A stretch of DNA of 64,000 bases from Spirochaetia bacterium (GTDB lineage: Bacteria; Spirochaetota; Spirochaetia; UBA9216), in assembly GCA_965140585.1 (NCBI GenBank), contig OZ223264.1, forward strand, positions 236,829 through 300,828, given 5' to 3'. The notes under the pieces are model-generated. The model saw only the letters and a program-made list of their open reading frames with translations. It ran no database searches and was not told the DNA's origin. Of the stretch, positions 746-18,770 are shown one piece after another (position 1 is the stretch's first letter; each line of letters opens with the position of its first letter). A program made the translations under genes and the position numbers.

Positions 746-3700
746 TGTTAGCTTACGTTGATTTTGGTTCAGGTGAATCAAACATTTCAGATTATATAAT
801 ATCTTCCTCATTCAAGCGGACACTTCAGCTATGTAATGAAGAATTGTGCTATGTAGTTAACAAATGCAGTTTTGAAATCAAAGGTTCAACGACTCTGAAA
901 CTTCAGATTATGAACAGCGATGATACAACAATCCGGATAACTGAAGACGATGGAACAGCGTATTTTAAAGGAAAGGTAAGAGGAACATTTGAAACCAAAA
1001 TCAGTTCTCAGGTAGGTAACCTAAAGGTTGAGTTGGTCGATAATCTCGATGACATAACAGCAACTGTTGAGACTGTTGATATATGGTCTGGGTATAAGAT
1101 ATGTGACAGTTCAAATACTTCGGCTTCTATACTGCATCAACTCTTTTATTTGGCTGGTTACTCTTCCTCTGATTTGAGCCTTGTGGATGTCGATGTGACA
1201 ATTCCATATTTCTATTTGGAAGAGGATACTGCAGTCATTGATATTATCAGTGATTTAACTTTTCAATACGGTCAGGTGATTAACTGTGAACTCGATGGAA
1301 CATTTAAGAATTACAGTATCTACTATGATGATTTAACAACTTCTTCTTATCTCAACAATACCAACATCTATGGTGAGCTTGGAATCAAGAAAGTTGAAGA
1401 GAAGTACAAATCGGTCAAGGTAATATGGAATCCTATCGAGTATGCAGCAGACAAGGTTGTCTTTTCAGATATTACAAACGGAACAACTTTATTGCAATGT
1501 AATATTGAATTAGAACCTTCTCAGTATTACCAAGATGATGATGAGATATTTGCCAACTATACCTACAATGATGAAGAGCTTGTCTATGTAGAAAATGCCT
1601 CTTTGGATATCAGCTGTGATGCTGATATTTCCTACTCAATAACTGAGGCTCCTAAGGGGGCTTATCTTTCTATTCAGAATACAAACTCAACAATCAATGA
1701 GAACATTACAAAACTCGATATCACAGGTGATGTATATTATAAAGGTGCACAGCACACTGAATATTCTTCAAACATTAGTGACACCAAAGATATAGAAGAG
1801 ATTGAAGCCTCTTACATTTTTGAAGAGGCTTATGCTCAGAATCTTGCGAGTTATCATGCTGTTTACTACAAGTATTCTGATTTCAAATACACTGCCAAAT
1901 CCAAAGACTATTATCCTATTGGGACACTTGTCCTGATAAACGAAACAGCATTTACCAACCTTGATGTTACTGGATTTGTCTCTCAGATTGTTGATGATGG
2001 AACTGGCTACTATACTTATACAATCTATTCAGTAAGTGAGTTCTCAGCACAGCCTATTACAACCAAAGTAAGTACAATCTCAAAGACCAACACCCAGATT
2101 TCAATTCCTACTATTGTTGAGGAAGTTTCAAATAATATTACCGTTGAAGGTGTTCCGACGTACAATGAGATAAACACAGGAGCTTCGTTGTTAAATGAAG
2201 GTTCTGCAACGACAACAATACCTGATGTGCCGACTGTTGTGGTTGAAGAATATTATAAATCACTCAGGATTGTTTACGATGTTCAAGACAACCTTTCAAA
2301 CTTTAGCCACTATGAGATTCAGGTTTCAGCTGATGAATCAAATTGGTATTCATTGGCTTCAGGTTCAAATTGGAAAGATACTCTTAATGATACTACAGCT
2401 ACTATTTTCTATTATCATACTCATGCAGGCATTCCTAACTCTGGAACAAGCCAAGAACCTACAGGAACAACTCTCTCATATAGAGTAAGACGTGTTACTT
2501 CTGCCAATGTTGAAAGTGATTGGTCAGATGTAGTAACAGGCACAACCAAGATTATCGAGACAGGTGATGTTGCTGCATCTTCAATAACTGCGGACAAGAT
2601 AGAAGCTGGTTCAATCACATCTGATAAGTTATCAACAGACTTATTACAGACACAGATTGCACAGGTCAGCGGAAGTATCACTATTGATAGTTCTTATGGG
2701 TTTGTTGGGGTTGATAATGATACAAAGAGAAGAGTCTACCTCGATACTGATGAAGTGGTCGTCGAACAATATAACGAAACAACTGGTGATAGTGTTGTTC
2801 AATGTAGAATGGGTGGAAAGATAAAAGGTGCACCTTCATCTTATATAATCGGAAATGGTTTAATTAAAAATGAAAATGTAGAGATTCCAACAGCAATCCC
2901 AGACACTACTTATAAATTCACATTTGAAACAGATTTCTCAGATACGACTGCTACTTATTATTTCTCAAATGATACAGAAACAACACCAACTATAGATACA
3001 TCAAAATATGTTTTTGGGACTCACTCCATGAAGCTTGTTTCAACTAATGGAGAATCTTCTGTTTCCGATTGGTTTATACCAACATGGACAGGTGGTAATC
3101 CATTCTTCTTTGCATCATATTTCTACATTCCTACTGGAACTACAGCTCACTTCTCTTTTCAAGTTGGAGCTGTGTATATGGATTGTGTGCATTTAGGTAT
3201 TTCTACACTTTCGGGTTGGGCTGATGGGTATGTTACTAAAGATGGTGTTGATTGTGGTGCAACAGGAACAATTGACATTCCATATGATGAATGGTTTCTC
3301 TGTGCAATAAGTTATGACCCTGTTTTAGATACATTAAGTGTATCAGTGAATGATAATTATATAACTGCAAGTATTGATAATTCAACAGCTTGGGCTGGTT
3401 CAACAGATTATATGATGGGAAACATTATTTATTGGAATGATACCAGTGAAAGTATTTACATGGATGAAACTGTCTTGGATGTTGAAACTTTTATAGATAT
3501 TAGTGAGGCAATTAAACAATACTCAAGAACTGAGACATGGAACATTGGTGAAGATATAAGTGATAACCTTTATTTGATACCAGGAGAAGGCGGTTCTGTA
3601 ATAATTGGTGGTGACATAACATTCTCAAATGCTTTTACGCTTACGGATGCAGAGATAACAACATTAAATACCACAACGTTGAATTCAACAAATATAAATG

Positions 3701-4299
3701 GAACTCAAATATGTGCTGGGTATGACCCGAATGTTGATAACTCTGTTAGTTGTTCAAATTGGTTTCGTTCATCAGGAAATACTGGGTGGTATAACGCTAC
3801 TTATGCTGGTGGACTTTATATGGTGGATACAACATATGTTCGGACTTATAACGGAAAGTATTTTTATGCAAACAGAGTTTATGGTGCTGTTGGTAATGAC
3901 TATGCAGATGCCATAGAAATTGATGAAGAGTTGAATGTTGATTTTGGCTATGTCTATGTTAGAACTGCTGAAGGTAAAACAAGAAAGTCAACCAAATATG
4001 CAGAAAAAGGGATCATCGGAATAACTACAAATACCCAGTCTTTTACTGCTCATTCTTATGATGGAGAAAAAGACAGATTACCAATTTCAGTTTCAGGATT
4101 TGTATTGGCTCATACAGATAGAATTTATAAATCAGGAACACCTCTTACTTCATCAAAAAATGGATTACTTACTAAGGCTAGTCTGATTACTCGTGTCTTT
4201 AAACCTGAAAGAGTTATAGCAACGTTTTATAAAGAGATAAGTCAAAATACTTGGAATGATGTTGATGTAAATAAAAGAAATATAGTGAGAGTTAAATAA
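745..4299 (+). CDS. Phage tail host-specificity / tail-fibre protein (gpJ-like, 1184 aa)
   Basis: ATG overlaps the upstream stop (TAATG). Contains an FN3-like segment (SHYEIQVSADESNWYSL...LSYRVRRVTSANVESDWSDV), the SITADKIEAGSITSDKL motif common in phage tail fibre/host-specificity proteins, and a beta-rich lectin-like C-terminus. Confidence 0.6.
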   Translation: MLAYVDFGSGESNISDYIISSSFKRTLQLCNEELCYVVNKCSFEIKGSTTLKLQIMNSDDTTIRITEDDGTAYFKGKVRGTFETKISSQVGNLKVELVDNLDDITATVETVDIWSGYKICDSSNTSASILHQLFYLAGYSSSDLSLVDVDVTIPYFYLEEDTAVIDIISDLTFQYGQVINCELDGTFKNYSIYYDDLTTSSYLNNTNIYGELGIKKVEEKYKSVKVIWNPIEYAADKVVFSDITNGTTLLQCNIELEPSQYYQDDDEIFANYTYNDEELVYVENASLDISCDADISYSITEAPKGAYLSIQNTNSTINENITKLDITGDVYYKGAQHTEYSSNISDTKDIEEIEASYIFEEAYAQNLASYHAVYYKYSDFKYTAKSKDYYPIGTLVLINETAFTNLDVTGFVSQIVDDGTGYYTYTIYSVSEFSAQPITTKVSTISKTNTQISIPTIVEEVSNNITVEGVPTYNEINTGASLLNEGSATTTIPDVPTVVVEEYYKSLRIVYDVQDNLSNFSHYEIQVSADESNWYSLASGSNWKDTLNDTTATIFYYHTHAGIPNSGTSQEPTGTTLSYRVRRVTSANVESDWSDVVTGTTKIIETGDVAASSITADKIEAGSITSDKLSTDLLQTQIAQVSGSITIDSSYGFVGVDNDTKRRVYLDTDEVVVEQYNETTGDSVVQCRMGGKIKGAPSSYIIGNGLIKNENVEIPTAIPDTTYKFTFETDFSDTTATYYFSNDTETTPTIDTSKYVFGTHSMKLVSTNGESSVSDWFIPTWTGGNPFFFASYFYIPTGTTAHFSFQVGAVYMDCVHLGISTLSGWADGYVTKDGVDCGATGTIDIPYDEWFLCAISYDPVLDTLSVSVNDNYITASIDNSTAWAGSTDYMMGNIIYWNDTSESIYMDETVLDVETFIDISEAIKQYSRTETWNIGEDISDNLYLIPGEGGSVIIGGDITFSNAFTLTDAEITTLNTTTLNSTNINGTQICAGYDPNVDNSVSCSNWFRSSGNTGWYNATYAGGLYMVDTTYVRTYNGKYFYANRVYGAVGNDYADAIEIDEELNVDFGYVYVRTAEGKTRKSTKYAEKGIIGITTNTQSFTAHSYDGEKDRLPISVSGFVLAHTDRIYKSGTPLTSSKNGLLTKASLITRVFKPERVIATFYKEISQNTWNDVDVNKRNIVRVK

Positions 4300-4811
4300 T
4301 GTCAGGTGAAACATTGGTTACTGATTCAAAATTCAGTCATTACTCATCCAGTTCATTTTCTGTTGGATCATCAGCTTATACATACGTACAAAGATTTGGT
4401 AGAGGTAATAGAGGTTATATGAATGGAACACCAAGAAGCAATATCTTCACTGATGATAGCTTTATTATGAGAATCTATTACTACTCAGGAGGATGGGTTC
4501 AATCTGCATCAGCAGTTTGTTCTACTGATGGAACAGCCGTTGGTCTTTATTGTTCTTCAACAGATAGTTATAGAACCAGATGGTATTTTCTTTGGGATGC
4601 AAGGCCGTATGGTGATGGTAAAGCATATTTTGCTGGATATGGCAGAGTGGGGACTGCATACGCAATTAATCACTCATCTTATCCTAGAGGAAAAAATCTT
4701 GCTTTGTATCGAATCACAAACTTTGGTTGTGATACTTCTAACACTTCAGCAACATCCGATAGTTCAACAGCAATAACTACAGCACATTATGTATGTACAA
4801 AATATCAATAG
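4299..4811 (+). CDS. Hypothetical phage protein
   Basis: Translationally coupled (TAATG) to the tail gene. No recognisable motif. Confidence 0.4.
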   Translation: MSGETLVTDSKFSHYSSSSFSVGSSAYTYVQRFGRGNRGYMNGTPRSNIFTDDSFIMRIYYYSGGWVQSASAVCSTDGTAVGLYCSSTDSYRTRWYFLWDARPYGDGKAYFAGYGRVGTAYAINHSSYPRGKNLALYRITNFGCDTSNTSATSDSSTAITTAHYVCTKYQ

Positions 4812-4823
4812 GAGATTTTAAAA

Positions 4824-5261
4824 ATGGCTTTACTCGTAGATTTAAAAGCAGATAGTAATTACTCACAAATAGATTTAACTGATGTCTATGTTCGTATAGA
4901 TAGAGTTCAGATACAACCCAAGTTTGGGATTATGAAAATGACAGTAGAGGGTTATATCAGTCCTGATGTCTCGTCTGTTATTAGAGGAATTGAACAAGCA
5001 CAGACAACCTTTGCTTCTAATTTCTTTGAAGAGGTGGGGAGTGATATTATTTCAGGCAGTTTGTATAACTCTGTCCAAGAAGAACGGAGTATGTTAGAAC
5101 CACCTCCATTCACACAAGATTATCCAGTAGCACTATTCAATGATGTATTTACTGTAAGGCTAACTGAAGAGACTGCTTCAACTTCTGTAGATGACCTTTA
5201 TCCCATCTTATATGAAATGCTTAAAACAGAAACAAGATTTCAGAATGTCAGGGATGCTTGA
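4824..5261 (+). CDS. Hypothetical phage protein
   Basis: ORF in the phage operon. RBS-like 'ggagat' upstream. Confidence 0.4.
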   Translation: MALLVDLKADSNYSQIDLTDVYVRIDRVQIQPKFGIMKMTVEGYISPDVSSVIRGIEQAQTTFASNFFEEVGSDIISGSLYNSVQEERSMLEPPPFTQDYPVALFNDVFTVRLTEETASTSVDDLYPILYEMLKTETRFQNVRDA

Positions 5262-5650
5262 TGGAAGAGGAGAGAAGAAAAGACAGAATTGATTTTCAAA
5301 CTTATATGGAGGTTTTGGTGAGCAACGTAAAAGAAACTGTCAAAATAGAACTGACCTCTGTAAAGCAGGAAATCAAGAACTTGGAAGAGAAGGTAATTAC
5401 TCGCATTGACCTTCATGAAAAAGAAAGCGGTAACAAGATAACAAACATTGAAGAAGAGTTGGACTGTCTTAAAACCAAGGTCTCAAGTATTGAAAACAGA
5501 GTTGAAGCTTTGGAGTTGAAACCTATCAAGGATAATTCTGAGACAATAGAAAAGTTTAAATCAACATTCAAAAAGATTCTGTATACCACATTAGCAGGAG
5601 GGATAATCACTTTTATTTTGTATTTAATAAAAATGTTTTTAGGTGTTTAA
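5258..5650 (+). CDS. Coiled-coil protein with C-terminal TM anchor (phage)
   Basis: ATGA overlap with the previous gene. Heptad-rich coiled coil followed by hydrophobic C-terminus TLAGGIITFILYLIKMFLGV. Confidence 0.4.
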   Translation: MMEEERRKDRIDFQTYMEVLVSNVKETVKIELTSVKQEIKNLEEKVITRIDLHEKESGNKITNIEEELDCLKTKVSSIENRVEALELKPIKDNSETIEKFKSTFKKILYTTLAGGIITFILYLIKMFLGV

Positions 5651-6116
5651 AATGTATATATTTCAAAATCACAACGACCTGTATCCAGTTATTCAGGATG
5701 TGGGTTGTTACTTTCGGTCATGCCTTCATATTGCCGAGTTAGAAAGTCACAAGATTCTATCACCAACTCAGATAAATAGATTATGGGATAAGGCAAATAG
5801 TTTAGGACAGATTATTGATTCTAATCTTAAAAAGCCAGGTCCGTTAATTGAACTTGGTTGCAAGGAGCTTGGATTAGATAGGACTGCCTTTGATGTCGCA
5901 ATCTTCAAGTATGGTCAGATTGATTATTATGGTTGGGTTAAATCACATCCTCAATACAAGAATTATAAATACCTGATTCAGAAAGTTCAGACTGTAAATG
6001 ATCATGAACATTATAGGGTTGTAGATGTATTTGGCAATGTAATATTTGACCCATATCATCCATCACCTGAAGTTAGCTTTATTTATAGTTCTATTCTGTT
6101 CTATGTAGGAGCTTGA
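5643..6116 (+). CDS. Putative Cys/His peptidase-type lysin (phage)
   Basis: Overlaps the previous gene. N-terminal QDVGCYFRSCLHIAE with a downstream His/Asp resembles C39-like/CHAP-like peptidases. Sits within a lysis cassette. Confidence 0.3.
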   Translation: MFKMYIFQNHNDLYPVIQDVGCYFRSCLHIAELESHKILSPTQINRLWDKANSLGQIIDSNLKKPGPLIELGCKELGLDRTAFDVAIFKYGQIDYYGWVKSHPQYKNYKYLIQKVQTVNDHEHYRVVDVFGNVIFDPYHPSPEVSFIYSSILFYVGA

Positions 6117-6120
6117 ATGG

Positions 6121-6552
6121 ATGGTAAGAAAGTTATTATCAATATTACTTGCACTCTTGTTGTTTCAGCCTGCCTATACTTGGGCGGATTCTTTACTGCC
6201 AGAAGTATCTATAGTCGAGCAGTTGACGAATGTAATATTTCAATTGCAGAAAGTACAGAACGATATAACCAGTTATCAGAAGCTTATACAAGAATTACAG
6301 AAATCAATTCAGACTTACAAGGCAGACTCGATTCAAGCATCTTTGAAGCTGAAAGAGCAACAGGCATTATTAAATCAATATCAGAAGGACTTGGAAGCAC
6401 ATCAGGAGACATACAATCAATTATTGAATGCCTACAACGAATTGTTGAACAGATTAGAGAATATGAAGGTTGTGAATAATATCTTAATCGGGACAACTGT
6501 CTCATTTGGCTTATTTGTAATCATTAAAGGTTTTATCATATGGAAAAGTTAA
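6121..6552 (+). CDS. Signal-peptide / coiled-coil / C-terminal TM protein (spanin-like?)
   Basis: MVRKLLSILLALLLFQPAYTWA signal-like N-terminus, long coiled coil, TM at C-terminus. An alternative overlapping ORF 6117..6479 in another frame is also coiled-coil; only one is likely real. Confidence 0.35.
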   Translation: MVRKLLSILLALLLFQPAYTWADSLLPEVSIVEQLTNVIFQLQKVQNDITSYQKLIQELQKSIQTYKADSIQASLKLKEQQALLNQYQKDLEAHQETYNQLLNAYNELLNRLENMKVVNNILIGTTVSFGLFVIIKGFIIWKS

Positions 6553-6716: not shown

Positions 6717-7160
6717 TTAGGGTATCTCGATTGATGTTGAAGAACTTTTTATCCAATTGTCAAGTTGCTCGATTACTGATTTAATTTCAGAGGGTTTTTT
6801 CTTCTTGATTGCACATTCCCATATTATTGCTATCCGCCAGCCTTTACTTTTTAAATTCCGAATATTTGTACTATCTCTTTCTACATTCTCTTGTAATTTT
6901 TTTTGCCAAAATTCTGTTCTGGTTTTTGGTAGTACAAAAAGAGGGCAGTTGTGCATATGCCAAAAGCAACCGTGAACAAAAATGACTACTTTATGTTTGG
7001 TTAATACAATATCAGGTTTACCGGGTAATTTTTTTGAATGTAGAGAATATCGATATCCAGAAGCAAATAAACCTTTTCGAATTACAAGTTCAGGTTTTGT
7101 ATTTTTAGCTTTAATACCACTCATCATTTTTGAACGAGTGGCAGGCGATACAATATCCAT
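6717..7160 (-). CDS. vsr: Very short patch repair endonuclease Vsr
   Basis: Classic Vsr motifs: TRSKMMSGIKAKNTKPE, LPGKPDIV, IFVHGCFWHMHNC, FWQKKLQENVERD, GWRIAIIWECA. Confidence 0.9.
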   Translation of the reverse strand: MDIVSPATRSKMMSGIKAKNTKPELVIRKGLFASGYRYSLHSKKLPGKPDIVLTKHKVVIFVHGCFWHMHNCPLFVLPKTRTEFWQKKLQENVERDSTNIRNLKSKGWRIAIIWECAIKKKKPSEIKSVIEQLDNWIKSSSTSIEIP

Positions 7161-8407
7161 TATTTTACAAGCACTAAATCTTCATGCTTTTTCATTGCAT
7201 TGATAACAATCGGTTTAATAACTTTAGCAACTTCAGAAAAAACAGGGACAACTACACTATTACCAAATTGCTTATATGCTCTAGTGTCGGAAACCGGAAT
7301 GTCGAAACTGTCATCAAACCCCATTAATCTGGCACATTCTCTGGGCGTTAGCCGTCTTGGGTTTTTGTTTTTTTGGTGAACTAAAATTTCTGAACCATCT
7401 TTATAATATCTGGCAGATAGAGTTCTGGAAACGTCGTTTTCTTTAACAAGGCCAAATCCAAATCCATTTCCTTTTGCTCTATGTTTCTCGGCATAGTTTT
7501 GTAAATAAGCCCAAAGTTTATCTGTTAAAGTATATTTGTCATGTACCTTGTTATTTTTATGGTCAAAATATTTATCCTTATCATGTTCAAGGAAAAGTTC
7601 AGAACCATCTGTTTTGTGAAGGATGCTACCAATCTTAACTTGCCCTTTTGGTGGATAGTTTAACATATCCCAGTCAAACTCAGCTTCATTTTTGAATCCA
7701 ACAATAATTATTCTTTCTCTATGTTGTGGTACCCAATGTTGTCCATCTATTATGTGGGGATAGACATTGTATTCTAATTCTTCTCGAAGTGTTCGCATAA
7801 TTACTTTAAAGGTGTTCCCTTTATCATGTGATTTTAGATTCTTCACATTTTCAAGAACGAAAGCTTCTGGTCTTTTAGCATCGATTATTCGAGCTACATC
7901 GAAGAAAAGAGTTCCTTGTGTTTCATCTTCGAAACCATGCAATCTTCCAAGAGATATTTTTTTTGACACTCCAGCTATTGAGAATGGCTGGCAAGGGAAT
8001 CCTGCCAATAATACATTGTGGTCTGGAATCTCTGACACCTCAACTTTTGTTATGTCTCCGTTTAAGAGTTCACCATCTCTATAATTTGCAGCATAGGTTT
8101 TCTGAGCATATGAATCCCATTCAGAAGTAAAGACACATTCACCACCAGCTTTTTCAAAGGCATTTCTAATCCCGCCAATTCCTGCAAATAAATCTATAAA
8201 TTTGAATTCACCATTAGTCTTTTTACCGATAGTTTGTGCTGAAATCAATTTCTGTAATCTATCAACAACATAATCTTTTGGTTCAGATTCATTTTTTAAC
8301 CAACGTGTGACTGTACTTACATTTACATCAAGTTCGTCAGCAATCTCTCGTTTAGTATAATAATTTAATGCATTAGACAGATAATCGATAGTTTTGACTG
8401 TGCTCAT
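7160..8407 (-). CDS. dcm: DNA (cytosine-5)-methyltransferase, Dcm-like, with N-terminal XRE-type HTH
   Basis: Motif I FIDLFAGIGGIRNAF, motif IV GFPCQPFSIAG, ENVKNL. N-terminal REIADELDVNVSTVTRWL helix-turn-helix. Overlaps vsr as in E. coli dcm-vsr. Confidence 0.9.
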   Translation of the reverse strand: MSTVKTIDYLSNALNYYTKREIADELDVNVSTVTRWLKNESEPKDYVVDRLQKLISAQTIGKKTNGEFKFIDLFAGIGGIRNAFEKAGGECVFTSEWDSYAQKTYAANYRDGELLNGDITKVEVSEIPDHNVLLAGFPCQPFSIAGVSKKISLGRLHGFEDETQGTLFFDVARIIDAKRPEAFVLENVKNLKSHDKGNTFKVIMRTLREELEYNVYPHIIDGQHWVPQHRERIIIVGFKNEAEFDWDMLNYPPKGQVKIGSILHKTDGSELFLEHDKDKYFDHKNNKVHDKYTLTDKLWAYLQNYAEKHRAKGNGFGFGLVKENDVSRTLSARYYKDGSEILVHQKNKNPRRLTPRECARLMGFDDSFDIPVSDTRAYKQFGNSVVVPVFSEVAKVIKPIVINAMKKHEDLVLVK

Positions 8408-8419
8408 GAAATCCCCTCC

Positions 8420-8458
8420 CTGGGAACATATATTGCATTATGCACTATTTATTCCCAG
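8420..8458. promoter_or_regulatory. Inverted repeat CTGGGAA-N25-TTCCCAG containing a CCTGG site in the MTase upstream region (putative operator)
   Basis: Read directly: CTGGGAA at 8420-8426 and TTCCCAG at 8452-8458, in the 120-bp gap between the R and M genes. Confidence 0.3.
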
Positions 8459-8527
8459 ATGAACAGGTTTATTTTGAGTTAATTCCTCAGAAATGTCAAT
8501 TATTATAAAGATTATATATGAATGGAC

Positions 8528-9718
8528 TTATTTCTGCTTTCTATCCCTTAATCTTTCTGTTCTTGAATATAGTTGAATGAGTTTTTCTTCTTTAACCCTA
8601 AAGCAGGTTCCATGATTTCGTTTAGTATGCATCCTAATTTCCATCATAACATCTCCTGATTCAATAAGCTGGATAAACTCCTTTATTGAGGGGCCTGAAT
8701 AATAGGTTAGCTCTACATAATGAAATTCTTCATTCTTATCTTTACCTCTATTTTCGGCACCGATATACGCACTTTCTGTAAGCTTTTCATTTAGTCTAAA
8801 TTGAATGGTCGTAAAATCATATTTTCCTATAGGAGTGTTATTAAAACATAGATATACGTTTTCAGTTTCATTATCTACAGAAAGACTTAGATTGTGGGTA
8901 TTAATGTTAATGGTCGGTGTTGAATACAACGCTTGACGTTGGTTTTCAGCATCAAAATAACCATACCTCTCAAGTCTCTCATTTTGATTTTTGGAGCCAT
9001 CAATCCATTCCGGTTCTTTGAGAAATAAATTCATTTTTTCTTTAGATTGATTTTGTTTTAACCTGAAGCATTTCAGCTCAATACCCTTGAAGTCTGGTCC
9101 TGAAGAATTATTCTCTTCTATACCCATTAAAGATTCAAATGTGTATCCTACTCCTGTACTTCCAGAACGAAGTGTTTTGACATAACCCATTTCTTTAATT
9201 TTATCAAATTCCTCTAACAGTATATCGATGCCATTATTTCGCTGTACTGGTTGAATTGATAAGTGCCAATCTAAATCTAAAAAGAAAGAACCTTGTAAAT
9301 TTGATAAATTTAGTTCAGAAAGTAATTCGGAATAGTAGATATGGTCAGGCTCAAGAATATGGATTTCATAAGTTCTTTTATAATCTTTTCTTCTTCCTAC
9401 AATTATAAGAGTATGTTCAGGTACAGAATTGACTGATGTCTTTAGGCGCGTTATTCGTCTCTCAGGATACCGATGGTAATGTTTATAATTACCATCCTTA
9501 ACTTCAATTGTTCCTGTGTCATTCCAAAGATAGCTAATTTGTTCTGTATAATTTATTGATACATTCGGGATAAAGTTGGTAATTGCAGGAAAAAGTCTAT
9601 ATGCTTCAACCGGGATAAGAACGCCATGTCTACCAGAATCATCATTTTTAGTTAATATCTTACAGAGGATACCATCTACATTTTCATAATTGATAAGAAT
9701 TTTTGATAATACAGACAT
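8528..9718 (-). CDS. Type II restriction endonuclease, EcoRII-like (N-terminal B3-like effector domain)
   Basis: 396 aa (EcoRII is 404 aa). N-terminal LTKNDDSGRHGVLIPVEAYRLFP resembles the EcoRII N-domain L-S/T-x-N-D-x-G...P...LFP motif. Lies directly upstream of dcm-vsr, which is CCWGG context. Confidence 0.55.
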   Translation of the reverse strand: MSVLSKILINYENVDGILCKILTKNDDSGRHGVLIPVEAYRLFPAITNFIPNVSINYTEQISYLWNDTGTIEVKDGNYKHYHRYPERRITRLKTSVNSVPEHTLIIVGRRKDYKRTYEIHILEPDHIYYSELLSELNLSNLQGSFFLDLDWHLSIQPVQRNNGIDILLEEFDKIKEMGYVKTLRSGSTGVGYTFESLMGIEENNSSGPDFKGIELKCFRLKQNQSKEKMNLFLKEPEWIDGSKNQNERLERYGYFDAENQRQALYSTPTININTHNLSLSVDNETENVYLCFNNTPIGKYDFTTIQFRLNEKLTESAYIGAENRGKDKNEEFHYVELTYYSGPSIKEFIQLIESGDVMMEIRMHTKRNHGTCFRVKEEKLIQLYSRTERLRDRKQK

Positions 9719-12202: not shown

Positions 12203-13023
12203 ATGAAAAAAATTCCGATAAACGATCAAATTGCGTATTCTATTTCGAACTTAGTTGATGACTCTCAAGTAGGACGTAGAGACCCAAGCCATTATGAAAT
12301 AGAAACGTTGATTAACGAGTGCGCATTATCAAAATATGATCCAAACCAAATCGGGAAAGGCCCTGTTGGGAAGATGAAACGTATTCGTCATGTACTAATA
12401 GGTTCATTAGAAGAAGAAACAGAAAAAGCCGAGGCTTTTGCTTATGGAATTATAAGCTTAATACGTTCTTCTGGTGGATTCCGAGAATTATCTCCCAATT
12501 TTATTGGATGGGAGAATATCCATAATTTGCAAACGGTTTTAAAAGATGAAGGTATTTTGTTGGGTGATGATGGTACCTTAAGTTATAAGATTTTAGATGA
12601 TTTATCAAATTCAGAGAAGACCGATGTTTTATATTCATATATTAAAAGAGCCAGGAAAGGTAGTGAAGATGCTGCTCTGATTGTGGGAACTAGTAAAGAT
12701 TTGATTGAAGCAGTATCAGCTCATGTGATTTTTTAAAATGTGGAACATATCCTACAACTGCAAATTTCCCAACATTACTGGGACAGGCATTTGTTATGTT
12801 GGGCATGGCTACCTCTTATGATGAGGAAAAGAAAGATGAACATCCAAGAAAAACGATTGAACGAAACATGTATGATTTAGCTTGTTCTATTAATAAATTA
12901 CGGAATAAACAAGGAACTGGTCACGGTAGACCTTTTCTTCCAGATTTGTCAAAGACAGAGGCTATTGAAGCTGTACAAGTTATGGGGATTATTGCAGAGA
13001 AGATGTTAAATTGTTTGAGTTGA
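12203..13023 (+). pseudogene. Abortive-infection protein with Abi_C domain, interrupted by -1 frame break at T6A4 tract
   Basis: Downstream piece carries the Abi_C signature LRNKQGTGHG. Upstream ORF ends at a TAA inside GATTTTTTAAAATG (12727-12740). The second frame is open from 12709. A single extra T would fuse the two parts into one roughly 270-aa ORF. Confidence 0.55.
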
Positions 13024-13547: not shown

Positions 13548-13678
13548 TATACCTGATGCCGAGGTAAAGTAGTGACGTGAGTGGATTGGGCCAAGAGGCT
13601 CAGTTAAGAAATGTATGATTATTTATATTGTACTATAAAAATTGCCGTCATAATGACGGCTAGAATATCTATTTCTAT

Positions 13679-14773
13679 TTATTGCAAAGACATTAATTCC
13701 TCAAGAATTATTTTACTAAAATCTGGTGGAAGTCTACTTGAATGTATCATGTATTCTGTAAATAGAAATGCAAATTTTGTTGCTTGTCTATTAGTTTTTG
13801 TAAATAACTTTAAACACTTTCTTTCTTTATCATTTGATAGAATTGACCAAGCTAATTCACGGAGTATTAATGGCGAGCTATTAATTTCAAATGGAGCCTC
13901 TAATGCATGTCTGATTAATTCGATGAATTTCCCCCAATGTGGCAATGATAATTGTTCACCTAAATCAGAACTTGGTCTTGCATTTTTTAATGCCTCTTCG
14001 TAAAGATTATTCTTATATTCATAGGTTTCCCGTCCGCCATATAGTAACATTAACAATGCATCAGAAAGATCTTCTTTTTTGTCTGGATGAAGATAAAGAG
14101 AAAAAATTTTATTAACAATCTCTGCTATAGAAATGAGAAATAAACTAGAATAATCTAATACCAAAGAGAGATGCTCTTCTTTTTTAGGATCTAATTCTGG
14201 TGCGTTTTTTCTTAATAGAATGAGAGATTTACGACATGATTCCCCAGCATCTTTTATCATCCAAAAACTCGAACGAGAGAAACTAATTAATTCGGATAAT
14301 GTTGGATATTTTTTTCCAATATCAAAATATTTTTCCCATAAATCAATTTTACCTAAATTTGCGTCTGTCAAGGTTAAAGCTTTTTGTGAAGTCGCATCAC
14401 AGAATACCTTAAAATCATGCTCGGTCAATAAAGTAACACCTATTTGACCAGCTGAGATGCGATGATCTTTCTCGATGTTGTCTTTTCGCAAGATGCAAAT
14501 GCCCATCTCGGCAGACATGTATTTCATTATTCCATTTAACCATAAAGCTCTGTTAATTGGACTTTGCCCCTTTAAAGTTTTGCAATCAATTATAATTTTT
14601 TTATAGCTGATGAAATCACATGGAATATATGCTAGAACGTCCAAGTCGGTAATTTTAATATTTTTATTCTGTATGTCTAGGGGACTACAGACATCTACCT
14701 CAAGTTGGGGGACCCAACCTTTTGATACAGCATACTTCAATGCTCTTTGTTTTTGTTCACGGTCTTGCATCAT
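13679..14773 (-). CDS. Unknown 364-aa protein with a PD-(D/E)xK nuclease-like motif, second gene of the operon
   Basis: ITDLDVLAYIPCDF...KKIIIDCKT matches the D...(D/E)xK arrangement. C-terminal part is helical. Confidence 0.45.
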   Translation of the reverse strand: MMQDREQKQRALKYAVSKGWVPQLEVDVCSPLDIQNKNIKITDLDVLAYIPCDFISYKKIIIDCKTLKGQSPINRALWLNGIMKYMSAEMGICILRKDNIEKDHRISAGQIGVTLLTEHDFKVFCDATSQKALTLTDANLGKIDLWEKYFDIGKKYPTLSELISFSRSSFWMIKDAGESCRKSLILLRKNAPELDPKKEEHLSLVLDYSSLFLISIAEIVNKIFSLYLHPDKKEDLSDALLMLLYGGRETYEYKNNLYEEALKNARPSSDLGEQLSLPHWGKFIELIRHALEAPFEINSSPLILRELAWSILSNDKERKCLKLFTKTNRQATKFAFLFTEYMIHSSRLPPDFSKIILEELMSLQ

Positions 14774-16065
14774 AGTTTAGCTCCGTACATGATTGAATCT
14801 AGTTCATATTGCTTTTCTTCAGACAATGGGATTTCTCCTCTTTTCCTTAGGTTTGTTGCGCTTATTGTTGACTCTACATATTCCTTGCTCTGTTCAAACA
14901 TTTTACATGCCTCTGGGTTAATTTCTAATCCTGAGACAGCCTCGTTAGAAACAAGTGATAATGCAATGCCCAATGCTTCCATATTTTCTTCTGTGTCTAT
15001 GATGTGAAGTTGAGAATACCCGTGAGGAAGTGGCTCTAAATAGCCAACTCGGCATTGCACTAGGTTTTTATATTGTTGAGTAGCCTCAGTTGTGCTACTT
15101 ATTGTCTTTCTATCTCGTAAAGCTCTAATAATCGCTGCCGGTTGTCTTATCCTATGTGCCTTCGGTAAGAATTGCCCTTGTCGAACAGAAGAAACAATTG
15201 CCATTGCTCGTTCATATATTTCACGTTTTGTTGGCGGTAGGTGTTTTGATGAAGGCGCTGGGGTAAACAGGAAGTAGTTTTTACCACTATGATCAGTTTC
15301 AATAGAGGGTGGTTTCACTATGCCAAATTGTGATAGGTTTAATAATAATTTGAGTTCATCATCTGTGATGTGGTGTCCGTTTATTTCTTTAGTTTCTTCG
15401 ACTATTGATAAAGGTATACCCTGAACTGTTTTAATTAGACTTAAAATATTGCTGACAGATTTAGAGCCACTACTAGCAACTGCATCTGTAAATATATCAA
15501 TGTTCTCAGAGAAATAGTGTGGACTGAGTAATATATCTTTTCCTCGGGCTCGGCGATTAATTATAAAGTTTCCTTTTGTCCCAATATCTACTGCTCTATC
15601 AAAGAGAACTTTTTCAGGGCTAAGCTTCTGAAATAGAGAATCACGATTTTCTGGAGATTGAGCAAGGCGTTTCACCATCTCAATACATAACTGTTCTGAT
15701 TCGTTAAATGACCCTTCAGACATAGAATAATCACCGATTACATGGTATAGATCTTCATAATAAGGAACATTAGGTAAAATCCCCTTAATAGTTCTTCCTT
15801 CTTGCCTGATCTTTACAAATTCAATATCACCTAAAATTTCTACTATCCCCTTAATCGATGTTGTTGGTATTGATAAATAGTGATTTGATACCATTTTCAG
15901 AATTTCAAAGTCAATAAAAGGAAGACCTCTGATATGTAATGCTAATCGTACTGCCATGCCTATTTCAACTAAAAATCCGAACTCTGGAACATCAATTGCT
16001 CCTAAATTTAATTGAATTTCATGGCATCTTGCAGCTATTTCAGATGATTCACCTTTTGAACTCAT
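14770..16065 (-). CDS. Unknown 431-aa protein, first gene of a two-gene operon
   Basis: Long ORF with no family recognisable by eye and no Walker motifs. Its stop overlaps the start of the downstream gene. Confidence 0.5.
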   Translation of the reverse strand: MSSKGESSEIAARCHEIQLNLGAIDVPEFGFLVEIGMAVRLALHIRGLPFIDFEILKMVSNHYLSIPTTSIKGIVEILGDIEFVKIRQEGRTIKGILPNVPYYEDLYHVIGDYSMSEGSFNESEQLCIEMVKRLAQSPENRDSLFQKLSPEKVLFDRAVDIGTKGNFIINRRARGKDILLSPHYFSENIDIFTDAVASSGSKSVSNILSLIKTVQGIPLSIVEETKEINGHHITDDELKLLLNLSQFGIVKPPSIETDHSGKNYFLFTPAPSSKHLPPTKREIYERAMAIVSSVRQGQFLPKAHRIRQPAAIIRALRDRKTISSTTEATQQYKNLVQCRVGYLEPLPHGYSQLHIIDTEENMEALGIALSLVSNEAVSGLEINPEACKMFEQSKEYVESTISATNLRKRGEIPLSEEKQYELDSIMYGAKL

Positions 16066-16195
16066 TTTTAAATCCTCCTATAAGGACCAATGTATAAATC
16101 TAAGAGTTATATGATAATGCTTCTAGACTAAGTATTCAAATATAAATTTTATTCTTTGAAAAAGAATTAAACTTCATTCAAAAAAAGTATAATGT

Positions 16196-16287
16196 ATTAA
16201 ACCTTAGGTAACCCGGAATAACGTGAATTGGGACAGGTGACTCAGTTGAAAATGTTGATGTGCAGTAATCGAGTTTGTGATATTGTT
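16196..16287. repeat. 92-bp direct repeat, copy 1
   Basis: Identical over the 3' 60 bp (TTGGGACAGGTGACTCAGTTGAAAATGTTGATGTGCAGTAATCGAGTTTGTGATATTGTT) to copy 2. About 6 mismatches in the first 32 bp. Confidence 0.9.
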
Positions 16288-16293
16288 TTCGTT

Positions 16294-16689
16294 ATGCAAA
16301 AAGTGTTAAAGAGGTTAATCCCTTTACTTATAATGCTAATCTTCTTATTTGTTGGATGTGAAAAAGTTGAACATTTTGAAATTTCTGATGTGATTATCTT
16401 AACGACATCTGATAATGCACCAATAATGTTTAATTATATAATAGATTATAAAGTTTATGGGTATAACGAGCGTGAGAGAATTAATAAGCTTGAATGGAAA
16501 ATTGAATCACTAATTATTCCCGAATTTGTTGATTTTATAAATGAGCAAGTATCGGGATTTTCTAAATCTGAAATGATTACTAGTAATAAGATCCTGAATG
16601 GCATGAATACAAAAGTTGAAAGTCATTTAAATAAAATAGCGTCTGAATATCATTTCAGGGTTAAAAAAGTTACTATAACTGTAAAGTAA
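16294..16689 (+). CDS. Lipoprotein
   Basis: MQKVLKRLIPLLIMLIFLFVGC lipobox (FVGC). ATG lies immediately after repeat copy 1. The track ORF 16228 begins at a TTG inside the repeat. Confidence 0.5.
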   Translation: MQKVLKRLIPLLIMLIFLFVGCEKVEHFEISDVIILTTSDNAPIMFNYIIDYKVYGYNERERINKLEWKIESLIIPEFVDFINEQVSGFSKSEMITSNKILNGMNTKVESHLNKIASEYHFRVKKVTITVK

Positions 16690-16766: not shown

Positions 16767-16858
16767 ATTAAACCTTAGGCAACCTGGAACTGTGTGAATT
16801 GGGACAGGTGACTCAGTTGAAAATGTTGATGTGCAGTAATCGAGTTTGTGATATTGTT
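16767..16858. repeat. 92-bp direct repeat, copy 2 (third partial copy at 18262-18286)
   Basis: Followed by a degenerate copy of the lipoprotein start (VLKRGFVFLICYY versus MQKVLKRLIPLLIM). Confidence 0.9.
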
Positions 16859-17037: not shown

Positions 17038-17799
17038 ATGCAACTGAGTCAATCTCAAGGGCAATATTACTACAATGCCAGATGGTATGACCCAAGCATA
17101 GGCCGAATCACCACCGAAGACCCCATGCGTGACGGCCTAAACTGGTACGCTTATGCTAATAATAATCCGTTGAAGTTTGTTGACCCGAGCGGGTTGGCTA
17201 ACTTGACATCATATACACCTGATAATCCCTATTACTATTATAGCTCCTCAAAAGTGACTGATACGGTTATTAAATCATTATCGCTTATTCCTTATATAGG
17301 TGTAGGTGCAGGAATTGCAGAGTCCATCTCAAACAAATTTGGTTTATTTGAGATTATTGATTTAAATAAACAAAGCCAAATTGATAAAGCCTCTGGAGGA
17401 TTATCGTCTGCTGGAACTGTAGCAGGAATTATGAATAAATTGGGGGAAGGTTTTTTTAGTAATGGTTTTTCAAAAGTTTTAGGCGTTTTATCCACAATCG
17501 GAACAATAGTGGGACTTGCAGATTATGCTAATAGTTTCTTATCAGAACCCTCATTAGAAACGGAGAAAGCAGTAGATGCCTCAGGGGTCGTTCAGGGGAA
17601 ACATTTAGACACATTAATCCCATTTGCAAAAGAAGTAGAAGAATTAATGTCTGGATATTTAGATAGTGGCGATGTTGAAATAATTGAACGAGATGATGGT
17701 ACTGACACATTGCAATGGAATTCGCAGGCATCTAAAGATGCATTCAATTCAGTTGTAGAAGATTATCAACGAAATGAAGTGGAAAGAACCGATGAATAA
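17038..17799 (+). CDS. Orphan Rhs/YD-repeat C-terminal toxin fragment (core-end DPxGL plus Gly-zipper membrane-type toxin domain)
   Basis: YYYNARWYDPSIGRITTEDPMRDGLNWYAYANNNPLKFVDPSGL is the canonical end of the Rhs core. Only 12 residues precede it. The C-terminal domain is rich in GxxxG/AxxxG segments (IPYIGVGAGIAESI, GGLSSAGTVAGIMNKLGEG, VLGVLSTIGTIVGLA). Confidence 0.7.
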   Translation: MQLSQSQGQYYYNARWYDPSIGRITTEDPMRDGLNWYAYANNNPLKFVDPSGLANLTSYTPDNPYYYYSSSKVTDTVIKSLSLIPYIGVGAGIAESISNKFGLFEIIDLNKQSQIDKASGGLSSAGTVAGIMNKLGEGFFSNGFSKVLGVLSTIGTIVGLADYANSFLSEPSLETEKAVDASGVVQGKHLDTLIPFAKEVEELMSGYLDSGDVEIIERDDGTDTLQWNSQASKDAFNSVVEDYQRNEVERTDE

Positions 17800-17965
17800 T
17801 ATAATTATTCTATTTACAGTATTAGCTGTATTATTCTCTAATTTTAGTATTTGGTTATATTCGAAACAAGCAAAATTTTCGAAGATTATTAAGATTATTT
17901 TGTTTATAGTAGCAGATGGTATTTGGGCTACTTTGTTTGTAATAAAGATAATAGAAATTTTATAA
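17774..17965 (+). CDS. Small two-TM membrane protein, candidate immunity protein
   Basis: 63 aa. Overlaps the 3' end of the toxin ORF. Two hydrophobic helices. Confidence 0.4.
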   Translation: MKWKEPMNNIIILFTVLAVLFSNFSIWLYSKQAKFSKIIKIILFIVADGIWATLFVIKIIEIL

Positions 17966-18240: not shown

Positions 18241-18341
18241 TAAGAATATTACACAATCCATTCCCCTCTAACGGATTAAACTTCAGACAAACAATAGTGT
18301 ACTGAAATACCCATATATAATATTATGAAATAAGAGTTCCA

Positions 18342-18770
18342 ATTAATGTATTAATTGAGGGAAACCTGGTCAGAGATCCGGTTTTAAATGAAACCCCAAA
18401 GGGGACTAAAATATGCAATTTCACAATTGCAACCAACAGATACTTTAAGCAGGATGAGGAATATCAAAAAGAAGTTTCCTTCATCGATGTGGAAGCCTGG
18501 TCCAGACTTGGGGTTGTTTGTGATAATGGACTTCAAAAGGGACAGGGGGCCAGAGTTGTAGGTCGTCTGAAACAGGACAGGTGGAATGATAAGGAGGGCG
18601 CTTTTAAATCAAGACTGAAGATTGTTGCTGAACATGTGGAATTTAAGCCTGTATTCTCGAAGGAAGAGGCCCAGGCTCGTCAGGAGGCTGAGCAGGTAGA
18701 TCTATCCCAGGAGGCCGTTGCGAATGTCGTAACGCCGGAACTGGACCCTGTCGCGGATTCAGTGATTTAA
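18342..18770 (+). CDS. ssb: Single-stranded DNA-binding protein
   Basis: INVLIEGNLVRDPVLNETPKGTKICNFTIATNRY...VEAWSRLG...VVGRLKQDRWNDKEG aligns to the SSB OB-fold. There is no in-frame ATG/GTG/TTG before 18489; ATT at 18342 after AAGAG is the best candidate start. Confidence 0.7.
   Translation: MNVLIEGNLVRDPVLNETPKGTKICNFTIATNRYFKQDEEYQKEVSFIDVEAWSRLGVVCDNGLQKGQGARVVGRLKQDRWNDKEGAFKSRLKIVAEHVEFKPVFSKEEAQARQEAEQVDLSQEAVANVVTPELDPVADSVI

What the first reader, a model, noticed from the sequence alone, without database searches (positions are those of the whole stretch)
13679..16065. Unrecognised two-gene operon (431 aa plus 364-aa PD-(D/E)xK-like protein) inside a defence island: candidate novel anti-phage system
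Two co-directional minus-strand genes have an overlapping stop/start at 14770-14773. They sit in AT-rich accessory DNA between an Abi_C gene and an orphan Rhs toxin module, a few kb from a prophage-borne R-M system. The downstream protein carries a nuclease-like arrangement, ITDLDVLAYIPCDF ... KKIIIDCKT, matching the D...(D/E)xK pattern, followed by a long helical domain. The upstream 431-aa protein has no Walker motifs and no family I can recognise. Gene size, pairing, context and composition are what one expects of a compact sensor/effector defence pair. I cannot match it to the named two-gene systems I know (Gabija, Septu, Thoeris, Hachiman, Kiwa, Lamassu, AbiE).
Basis: partly seen in the sequence, partly recalled or inferred. 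Interest (0 to 1): 0.8.

Follow-up and report, generated by a model that had tools for sequence, protein, structure and literature searches.

The report
Uncharacterised winged-helix plus nuclease gene pair
Two overlapping genes, one encoding a chain of four winged-helix domains and one a restriction-enzyme-like nuclease, form a strictly conserved, horizontally mobile cassette found in at least 13 bacterial phyla, often next to or inside restriction-modification loci; it matches no described family and is most likely an untested anti-phage or anti-plasmid defence system.

Summary
A (431 aa, 14770-16065, minus) and B (364 aa, 13679-14773, minus) overlap by ATGA. The unit has an AGGAGG RBS and an intrinsic terminator.

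Neither protein hits Pfam, NCBIfam, PHROGs, PADLOC v2 or PDB sequences. This holds when whole families are scanned.

B follows A in every locus that extends past A (52 of 54 genome loci), down to about 21% identity, and their divergence correlates (r = 0.94). DNA homology between loci ends at the cassette edges, and no third gene is conserved.

Flanks include type I R-M (7 loci; three have hsdS-A-B-hsdM), type IIG, MADS, Schlafen-like helicases, toxin-antitoxin pairs, integrases and IS elements. The pair is absent from phage genomes and from E. coli.

Verdict: a credible, apparently undescribed nuclease-based defence cassette. Defence function and mechanism are inferred, not shown.

The parts
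16111..16139 (-). Candidate sigma-70-like promoter (TTGAAT-17-TATCAT) upstream of gene A
   Evidence: Consensus scan, (9 of 12 matches). Weak evidence: promoter-like sites in this AT-rich stretch are not enriched over shuffles (18 found against 13.7 expected).
16074..16079 (-). Ribosome-binding site AGGAGG, 8 nt before the ATG of gene A
   Evidence: Read directly from the sequence.
14770..16065 (-). Gene A: 431-aa protein made of about four tandem winged-helix modules, with no enzymatic domain. Proposed recognition/regulatory subunit.
15772..15975 (-). A, winged-helix module 1 (aa 31-98)
   Evidence: Secondary-structure pattern H-H-H-E-E in the AF2 model.
15526..15765 (-). A, winged-helix module 2 (aa 101-180)
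   Evidence: Contains the invariant RGRD / SPxYFSEN motifs.
15268..15501 (-). A, winged-helix module 3 (aa 189-266)
   Evidence: Contains the conserved QGxPLS and VKPPS..FLFTPTP motifs.
15001..15234 (-). A, winged-helix module 4 (aa 278-355). This is the only basic module (pI 9.7) and the most likely nucleic-acid-binding one.
   Evidence: Contains the conserved KRxIYERAM..RQGQ and TEATQQY motifs.
14781..14784 (-). Internal RBS (GGAG) for gene B, inside the 3' end of A, 7 nt before B's ATG. Implies translational coupling.
   Evidence: The A-B junction is mostly between a 4-nt overlap and a 10-nt gap across 51 loci.
13679..14773 (-). Gene B: 364-aa protein with an N-terminal PD-(D/E)xK nuclease domain and a C-terminal all-helical domain. 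Proposed effector.
14384..14773 (-). B nuclease domain (aa 1-130) with candidate catalytic residues E25, D43/D45, D63-C64-K65, plus R75, W78 and H104
13685..14347 (-). B C-terminal helical domain (aa 143-363), function unknown (regulatory, oligomerisation or A-binding)
13634..13660 (-). Intrinsic terminator (GCCGTCA-tta-TGACGGC followed by AATTTTTATA) closing the two-gene unit

Best explanation
A and B form a self-contained, horizontally mobile two-gene nuclease-based immunity (conflict) cassette. B is the effector. It is an active Mrr-like PD-(D/E)xK DNA endonuclease whose C-terminal helical domain mediates regulation or assembly. A is a non-enzymatic array of four winged-helix domains. It is co-translated with B and probably forms a complex with it, supplying target recognition and/or keeping B inactive until an invader-associated nucleic-acid feature or protein is sensed. 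B then cleaves DNA. Shown here: the operon structure, the folds, conservation of the catalytic residues, obligate pairing, transfer as a unit, and recurrent defence and mobile-element context. Inferred: defence function, the A-B complex, which protein senses, and what is cleaved.
For: Operon with ATGA overlap, RBSs and terminator. B has a high-confidence PD-(D/E)xK fold; E25, T42, D43, D45, D63, C64, R75, W78 and H104 are 100% conserved and K65 96% conserved in 52 homologues from at least 10 phyla, which indicates an active enzyme. A is a WH array with no catalytic fold. B lies directly downstream of A in 52 of 54 species-representative loci (the other two are cut by the contig end) and in all 15 metagenome loci. 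Pairing persists in actinobacterial relatives at about 21-25% identity. Pairwise identities of A and B correlate at r = 0.94. DNA homology between loci with unrelated flanks starts 25-133 bp before A and ends 0-38 bp after B. No third gene is conserved: 466 neighbours fall into 419 clusters. Context includes hsdS-A-B-hsdM inside type I R-M operons, type I R-M within 5 genes in 7 loci, PADLOC hits to type I/IIG R-M and MADS, and Pfam hits to integrases, resolvases, SLFN helicases and nSTAND3. Further neighbours are MrcB_N plus SLFN helicases in a satellite-like element, SLFN_AlbA_2, DUF262+DUF3696 and IS elements, TA plus a ThiF/multiubiquitin module, and HD-CE and Uma2. In the window it lies in a strain-specific AT-rich island with R-M, Abi_C and Rhs. 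It is absent from 50,697 phage genomes and present in only 1 of 2.9 M viral contigs, so it is a cellular gene pair, not a phage one.
Against: There is no experimental evidence of protection. Defence-island enrichment was not scored against a genomic background. In some loci the pair sits as a small insert among housekeeping genes with little nearby defence content. A is more conserved than B in 100% of locus pairs, the opposite of what is usual for fast-evolving sensors. A is mildly acidic overall (pI 5.9, family median 6.4), which is atypical for a general DNA binder. K65 is replaced in 2 of 52 homologues. The family is rare (54 of 185,579 species representatives, a pattern-limited lower bound).
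Confidence: 0.6

Rival explanations
1. Type IV-like (modification-dependent) restriction enzyme in two pieces. A's winged-helix modules recognise modified or otherwise non-canonical DNA, and B, an Mrr-like nuclease, cuts it. No methyltransferase is needed because unmodified self DNA is not a substrate. This is a specific sub-case of the best explanation.
Against: No known modified-base reader fold (SRA, YTH, EVE, Mrr_N at threshold) was detected in A. A is acidic apart from WH4. The host of the window carries a Dcm-type methylase 6 kb away, so at least that m5C mark must be tolerated. Nothing here tests substrate preference.
Confidence: 0.2
2. Toxin-antitoxin or abortive-infection-type addiction module. 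B is a toxic nuclease, and A is a large antitoxin and autorepressor that neutralises it. The pair mainly stabilises the islands or plasmids that carry it, and any phage defence comes from release of B when A is lost.
For: The gene order is DNA-binding-fold protein first and nuclease second, with overlapping stop/start and likely stoichiometric co-translation. It is found on plasmids, IS-flanked segments and integrative elements. It is often adjacent to classical TA pairs.
Against: Both proteins are 3-4 times larger than typical type II TA components. A is the more conserved partner and has about four conserved domains with many invariant polar residues, far more than neutralisation would need. 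No orphan B or orphan A genes were seen. No TA family HMM hit.
Confidence: 0.15
3. Not immunity at all. The pair is a DNA-transaction module of mobile elements (for example homing, recombination, replication initiation or partition-like functions) or a niche DNA-repair pair.
For: Neighbours in some loci include SSB, UvrD, PDDEXK_1, HU and an integrase, a rolling-circle Rep and a Y-family polymerase. Multi-WH proteins are common replication and transcription scaffolds.
Against: The cassette travels without any particular element type, and no flanking gene is conserved. There are no terminal inverted repeats or target duplications. It is single-copy apart from one large segmental duplication. 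It is patchy and strain-specific. It lies inside R-M operons in several lineages.
Confidence: 0.05

Closest known systems
Mrr and other type IV restriction endonucleases (Mrr_cat, PF04471)
   Same: PD-(D/E)xK nuclease combined with winged-helix DNA-recognition modules. No cognate methyltransferase. Located beside type I R-M genes. B's only weak family signal is Mrr_cat.
   Different: In Mrr the WH and the nuclease are in one polypeptide, with WH N-terminal. Here the nuclease is N-terminal in B, followed by a 220-aa helical domain, and four WH modules sit in a separate, larger protein. No member reaches the Pfam threshold.
Shedu (SduA, DUF4263)
   Different: Shedu is a single-gene system. There is no DUF4263 or PADLOC Shedu hit. 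B always needs partner A.
Nuclease domains of Can2/Card1 (CRISPR ancillary nucleases), NucS and AF1548
   Different: Those nucleases are coupled to CARF sensors (Can2/Card1) or a mismatch-binding domain (NucS). B has neither, and sequence identity is 7-15%.
Genes embedded in type I R-M operons (e.g. PrrC, RloC, Abi genes)
   Same: The same genomic niche: A-B is inserted between hsdS and hsdM and co-oriented with them.
   Different: PrrC and RloC are ATPase-coupled anticodon nucleases regulated by the R-M complex. A-B has no NTPase and mostly occurs without any R-M neighbour.
Multi-winged-helix scaffolds (Pol III RPC62/RPC3, TFIIIC tau138, ESCRT-II, SelB C-terminus)
   Same: Beads-on-a-string arrays of about 4 WH domains. 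These are the best full-length Foldseek analogues of A (E 1e-4).
   Different: TM-scores are only about 0.2, sequence identity is 10-12%, and the biology is unrelated and eukaryotic or translational. This is an architectural analogy, not homology.
Type II toxin-antitoxin modules
   Same: A bicistronic, overlapping pair with a DNA-binding-fold protein upstream of a potentially toxic nuclease.
   Different: The components are much larger, A is multi-domain and highly conserved, and no TA family HMM matches.

Membership tests
PD-(D/E)xK nuclease superfamily (protein B) | Alpha-beta-beta-beta-alpha-beta restriction-endonuclease-like core fold | tested here: met
PD-(D/E)xK nuclease superfamily (protein B) | Conserved acidic residue at the start of beta2 and a (D/E)xK in beta3 | tested here: met
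   D43/D45 at the start of strand 40-52 and D63-C64-K65 at the end of strand 56-63. D43, D45 and D63 are 100% conserved and K65 96% in 52 homologues.
PD-(D/E)xK nuclease superfamily (protein B) | Metal-dependent nuclease activity | not testable with these tools
   Needs biochemistry.
Mrr_cat (PF04471) / type IV restriction | Match to the Pfam model above the gathering threshold | tested here: not met
   0 hits for the window protein. Only 3 of 21 family members hit, at E >= 0.013.
Mrr_cat (PF04471) / type IV restriction | No cognate methyltransferase in the unit | tested here: met
   No neighbour is conserved across 50 loci.
Mrr_cat (PF04471) / type IV restriction | Cleavage dependent on DNA modification | not testable with these tools
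   Needs in vivo or in vitro assays with modified DNA.
Named defence systems in PADLOC v2.0.0 (Gabija, Septu, Hachiman, Kiwa, Lamassu, AbiE, Shedu, PD-T4/T7/Lambda, PDC and HEC candidates, etc.) | HMM match of either protein to a system component | tested here: not met
   No hits for the window A or B. Among 28 divergent members there were only two single-member stray hits (Cas8f 1.6e-4, LmuC 0.025).
Defence systems described after 2023 (current DefenseFinder/PADLOC models) | HMM match to newer models | not testable with these tools
   Those libraries are not available here. Full-text searches found no description, and no PDB chain up to 2026 is related by sequence.
Anti-phage defence system (operational definition) | Homologues enriched next to known defence genes | tested here: inconclusive
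   Qualitatively yes: type I R-M in 7 loci, and IIG, MADS, SLFN, TA, DUF262/DUF3696 elsewhere. No background-corrected score was computed, and some loci have little nearby defence content.
Anti-phage defence system (operational definition) | Protects a host from phage when expressed | not testable with these tools
   Needs experiment.
Type II toxin-antitoxin | Small (about 70-150 aa) cognate pair matching a TA family | tested here: not met
   The proteins are 431 and 364 aa, with no Pfam or NCBIfam TA hits.
Type II toxin-antitoxin | Downstream protein is toxic and is neutralised by the upstream protein | not testable with these tools
   Needs expression experiments.
SMC/kleisin-based systems (Wadjet JetA, Lamassu LmuC) as a home for protein A | Co-encoded SMC-family ATPase partner | tested here: not met
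   No conserved neighbour besides B. One stray LmuC hit at E 0.025 in 1 of 28 members.
Winged-helix fold (protein A) | H-H-H-beta-beta modules matching solved WH domains | tested here: met

The most novel reading that the evidence does not exclude
A-B is a new class of innate immune system in which an unusually conserved four-winged-helix protein, more conserved than its nuclease, acts as a guard that reads a universal feature, and licenses a dedicated Mrr-like nuclease without using any NTPase. That feature could be a hypermodified or non-B-form nucleic acid, or the state of a core host machine such as RNA polymerase or the replisome. This would be a sensing logic distinct from R-M, Shedu, Gabija and the NTPase-nuclease systems.
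Probability: 0.2. Interest if true: 0.8.

Novelty: new variant of a known kind. Interest (0 to 1): 0.65.

Why it matters
If confirmed, this would add a compact, NTPase-free, two-protein defence system found across at least 13 bacterial phyla, including Pseudomonas aeruginosa, Priestia/Bacillus, Burkholderia, cyanobacteria, planctomycetes and actinobacteria. Current annotation labels it 'hypothetical protein' everywhere, and E. coli-centred discovery screens cannot see it because E. coli lacks it. It would define two new protein families: a tandem-WH sensor or scaffold, and a new branch of Mrr-like nucleases. It would also give a tractable model for how a non-enzymatic WH array controls a nuclease. 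Its repeated insertion between hsdS and hsdM further supports using type I R-M operons as a place to look for new immunity genes.

Tried and rejected
Profile libraries:
- Pfam, PADLOC v2, NCBIfam and PHROGs were scanned with the window proteins and with whole families including divergent members. Nothing reached significance.
- PDB sequence searches with single proteins and with profiles found nothing.

Rosetta-stone fusions:
- Longer family members carry no informative extra domains. The one DUF2283 N-terminal extension is probably a merged upstream gene.

Third component and self-mobility:
- Neighbour clustering found no conserved third gene.
- No terminal inverted or direct repeats flank the cassette, so self-mobility as a transposon was rejected.

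Phage or plasmid origin:
- No INPHARED phage carries it, only 1 of 2.9 M IMG/VR contigs does, and only 10 of 72,556 plasmids do.
- There is no match in E. coli genomes.

Literature:
- Six completed full-text searches (accession numbers, type I R-M embedding, WH plus nuclease defence systems) found no description.
- END nucleases (PMC12191111) and ZwsA (10.64898/2026.04.06.716636) were opened and are unrelated architectures.

Host identity:
- Cluster look-ups returned no organism names, and looking up the window's own protein A in the contig collection returned nothing.
Full report
**Observation**

Gene A is 14770-16065 (431 aa) and gene B is 13679-14773 (364 aa). The junction reads CTATGATG, so A's TGA stop overlaps B's ATG. 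A GGAG lies 7 nt upstream of B's start. A is preceded by AGGAGG 8 nt from its ATG. A 7-bp GC-rich hairpin plus T-tract follows 19 nt after B's stop (13660-13644). A promoter-like TTGAAT-17-TATCAT lies at 16139-16111, but promoter-like sites are not enriched over shuffles in this AT-rich DNA. The pair is therefore a compact, autonomous, translationally coupled unit.

**Setting in the window**

- The first ~18 kb have 29-37% GC against 39-51% beyond. The jump is sharp, near 18.0 kb.
- This AT-rich block holds prophage tail and lysis genes (149-6552) and a Vsr + Dcm + MvaI/BcnI-type R-M module (6717-9718).
- It also holds an Abi_C gene (12203-13023, apparently frameshifted), the A-B pair, and an orphan Rhs C-terminal tip (17038-17799).
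- Housekeeping proteins of the window have identical copies on a 2.62-Mb contig of a sister genome. A, B, the REase and the Rhs tip are singletons, so the island is strain-specific.
- No tRNA gene lies in the window.
- I could not identify the host organism.

**No known family**

- The window copies of A and B give no hit in Pfam, PADLOC v2.0.0, NCBIfam or PHROGs, and no PDB chain is related by sequence.
- The result holds for 41 A-family and 21 B-family members scanned individually against Pfam. It also holds for 28 divergent members of both families against PADLOC, and for profile searches of the 2026 PDB.
- The only recurrent weak signal is Mrr_cat for B (3 of 21 members, best E 0.013) and NA-iREase1 (2 of 21).
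- Every homologue that carries a name is called 'hypothetical protein'.

**Structures**

Protein B:
- It models with high confidence (pLDDT 88.8, pTM 0.89).
- It has an alpha/beta domain (aa 1-130) followed by an all-helical domain (aa 143-363).
D43/D45 lie at the start of strand 40-52, and D63-C64-K65 at the end of strand 56-63.
- Across 52 non-identical homologues, E25, T42, D43, D45, D63, C64, R75, W78 and H104 are 100% conserved and K65 is 96% conserved.
- Together these features indicate an active nuclease.

Protein A:
- It models moderately well (pLDDT 76; residues 375-414 are disordered).
- It consists of four consecutive H-H-H-beta-beta modules.
- Foldseek's best full-length analogues are multi-WH scaffolds: Pol III RPC62, TFIIIC tau138, ESCRT-II, UFL1/DDRGK1 and MAGE/Nse3. 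TM-scores are about 0.2.
- It has no NTPase or other catalytic fold.
- It is mildly acidic (pI 5.9; family median 6.4). Only WH4 (aa 269-373) is basic, at pI 9.7.

**The pair is obligate**

- A has at least 467 homologues in the 90%-clustered database and 404 representatives at 50% identity among 1.84 billion proteins. Length is almost uniformly 420-440 aa.
- A scan of one genome per species returned 54 loci. They come from Acidobacteriota, Verrucomicrobiota, Bacillota, Alpha-, Beta- and Gammaproteobacteria, Chloroflexota, Armatimonadota, Gemmatimonadota, Cyanobacteriota, Planctomycetota, Myxococcota and Desulfobacterota.
- Spirochaetota (Rectinema) and distant Actinomycetota copies add to that range.
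- A B-family gene lies directly downstream of A in 52 of the 54 genome loci. The two exceptions are cut by the contig end. The same holds in all 15 metagenome loci.
- The junction is mostly between a 4-nt overlap and a 10-nt gap.
- Pairing persists in Streptomyces and Mycolicibacterium plasmid copies. There A is 22-25% identical and B about 21% identical (hhalign probability 98.7-99.0%), and the TDLDV...DCKT...R..W motif is intact.
- Pairwise identities of A and B correlate at r = 0.94 over 1,081 locus pairs. A is the more conserved partner in every pair (mean 45% against 35%).
- Long family members carry no informative domain fusions.

**The pair moves as a unit**

- Among Bacillaceae loci with unrelated flanks, DNA homology of 82-93% starts 25-102 bp upstream of A and stops 0-38 bp after B. 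Pseudomonas sp. FEN and Halopseudomonas behave the same way (-133 to +1).
- Of 466 flanking ORFs (five on each side in about 50 loci), 419 are singletons after clustering. No third gene is conserved.
- No terminal inverted repeats or target duplications flank the cassette, so it is cargo rather than a self-mobile element.

**Context**

- The only recurrent neighbours are type I R-M subunits: HsdM in 7 loci, HsdR in 5 and HsdS in 4.
- In a gammaproteobacterial MAG (L012-L014, L021), a betaproteobacterium (L025) and an Opitutaceae genome (L026), the order is hsdS-A-B-hsdM on one strand with short gaps.
- The gamma- and betaproteobacterial copies share flanking homology, so these are not all independent insertions.
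- The 137 nearest neighbours give PADLOC hits to type I and IIG R-M and to MADS. They give Pfam hits to phage integrases, resolvases, SLFN-group-3 helicases, nSTAND3, AAA_16 and HATPase_c_3.

Individual contexts:

| Organism / locus | Neighbouring genes |
|---|---|
| Neobacillus | MrcB_N, two SLFN helicases, MazG-like, DUF3987, HNH, Terminase_4 |
| Priestia | SLFN_AlbA_2 |
| Verrucomicrobiota (small element) | Rolling-circle Rep, AbiEi_4/HTH_17 |
| Burkholderia glumae plasmid | DUF262 + DUF3696, IS elements |
| Mycolicibacterium plasmid | RelE/Phd, ThiF/multiubiquitin/ImmA |
| Streptomyces plasmid | DEAD/DEAH-box helicase, ATP-binding protein |
| Rectinema / Syntrophorhabdus element | SSB, UvrD, PDDEXK_1, HU, integrase |
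| Other loci (small inserts among housekeeping genes) | HD-CE or Uma2 |

- The pair is absent from 50,697 phage genomes.
- It is present in 1 of 2.9 million IMG/VR contigs and on 10 of 72,556 plasmids.
- It is absent from 5,426 complete E. coli genomes.

**Interpretation**

Best supported (confidence 0.6): A-B is a self-contained nuclease-based immunity cassette. B is an active Mrr-like PD-(D/E)xK endonuclease and acts as the effector. A is co-translated with B and co-evolves with it. A is a non-enzymatic WH array that supplies recognition and/or restraint. The folds, catalytic conservation, pairing, modular transfer and context are shown. The A-B complex, the trigger, the substrate and the defence phenotype are inferred.

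Points to keep in view: A is unusually well conserved, and most of its surface is acidic. This fits recognition of an invariant ligand, such as a chemical DNA feature or a conserved host or invader machine, better than recognition of fast-evolving phage proteins. It leaves three mechanisms open:
- a split type IV-like restriction mechanism (0.2, a sub-case of the best explanation);
- a TA/abortive-infection mechanism in which A restrains a toxic B (0.15);
- a non-immune DNA-transaction role for mobile elements, which is unlikely (0.05).

**Comparison with known systems**

B belongs to the PD-(D/E)xK superfamily by fold and motif. It fails the Mrr_cat, Shedu and all PADLOC model tests. A belongs to no family beyond the WH fold. 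No known two-gene system pairs a four-WH protein with such a nuclease. The nearest functional analogies are Mrr-type type IV enzymes (WH plus PD-(D/E)xK, no methylase, next to hsd genes) and accessory genes embedded in type I R-M operons such as PrrC.

**Novelty**

I rate it a new variant of a known kind: a nuclease-effector defence cassette built from two undescribed protein families. The limits on that claim are as follows.
- The PADLOC models date from 2023.
- Newer DefenseFinder models could not be run.
- Six full-text literature searches found nothing.
- The two candidate papers opened describe unrelated architectures.

**Score**

Interest is 0.65. This is a solid, well-delimited and phylogenetically broad lead with clear experiments. 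It is not a surprise in kind, because many nuclease-based systems are known and function is still untested.

Noticed in passing
window 12203-13023 (+): The Abi_C gene is split into two ORFs (12203-12736 and 12796-13023) in different frames. The second frame is open from 12709, and a T6 homopolymer at 12729-12734 sits at the switch. This suggests a -1 frameshift pseudogene or a homopolymer sequencing error; the intact protein would be about 270 aa.
   Followed up: partly
window 16196-16229 and 16767-16800 (+): A 34-nt direct repeat (ATTAAACCTTAGGTAACCCGGAATAACGTGAATT, 82% identical copies) brackets the 153-aa ORF 16228-16689, which has weak Band_7/SPFH similarity. There are two copies in the window against none expected by chance. 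It could mark the edges of a small inserted gene cassette directly upstream of the A-B operon.
   Followed up: partly
window 17038-17965 (+): An orphan Rhs C-terminal tip (Rhs_assc_core motif at aa 4-53, then a ~200-aa unassigned toxin-like domain) is overlapped at its end by a 63-aa hydrophobic ORF (17774-17965). The small ORF could be the cognate immunity gene. No upstream Rhs repeat body is present.
   Followed up: no
window ~18320-18770 (+): The SSB-like gene just outside the AT-rich island has no ATG/GTG/TTG start. The in-frame OB-fold N-terminus (INVLIEGNLVRDP...) begins immediately after a stop codon, with AAGAG 6 nt before an ATT codon. This suggests a rare ATT start, or a 5' end remodelled by the island junction. 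GC content jumps at about 18.0 kb.
   Followed up: partly
window 6717-9718 (-): A type II R-M module with Vsr (6717-7160), a Dcm-type C5 methylase carrying an N-terminal HTH (7160-8407), and an MvaI/BcnI-family REase (8528-9718) that has an extra ~165-aa N-terminal domain of unknown function. It sits directly after the prophage lysis genes.
   Followed up: no
L031 and L032 (Jeotgalibacillus proteolyticus NZ_PREZ01000009.1, 51301-72557 and 134362-155618): Two 100% identical copies of a segment longer than 8 kb, including the A-B pair and all five flanking genes on each side, lie about 83 kb apart on one scaffold. This could be a duplicated mobile element or an assembly artefact.
   Followed up: no
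L001-L006, L016 (Rectinema / Syntrophorhabdus metagenome contigs): One A-B variant (P0036) is seen on 122 contigs from many samples. It is always preceded by an HU-family gene, inside an element with SSB, SWIM, PDDEXK_1 and UvrD genes, or alternatively an integrase. This appears to be a widely disseminated integrative element in anaerobic digester and peat communities.
   Followed up: no
L073 8740-12408 (Mycolicibacterium crocinum plasmid): Directly downstream of the distant A-B pair lies a ThiF-family E1-like gene, a multiubiquitin-domain gene and an ImmA/IrrE metallopeptidase gene. This is a ubiquitin-like conjugation conflict module sitting next to the cassette.
   Followed up: no
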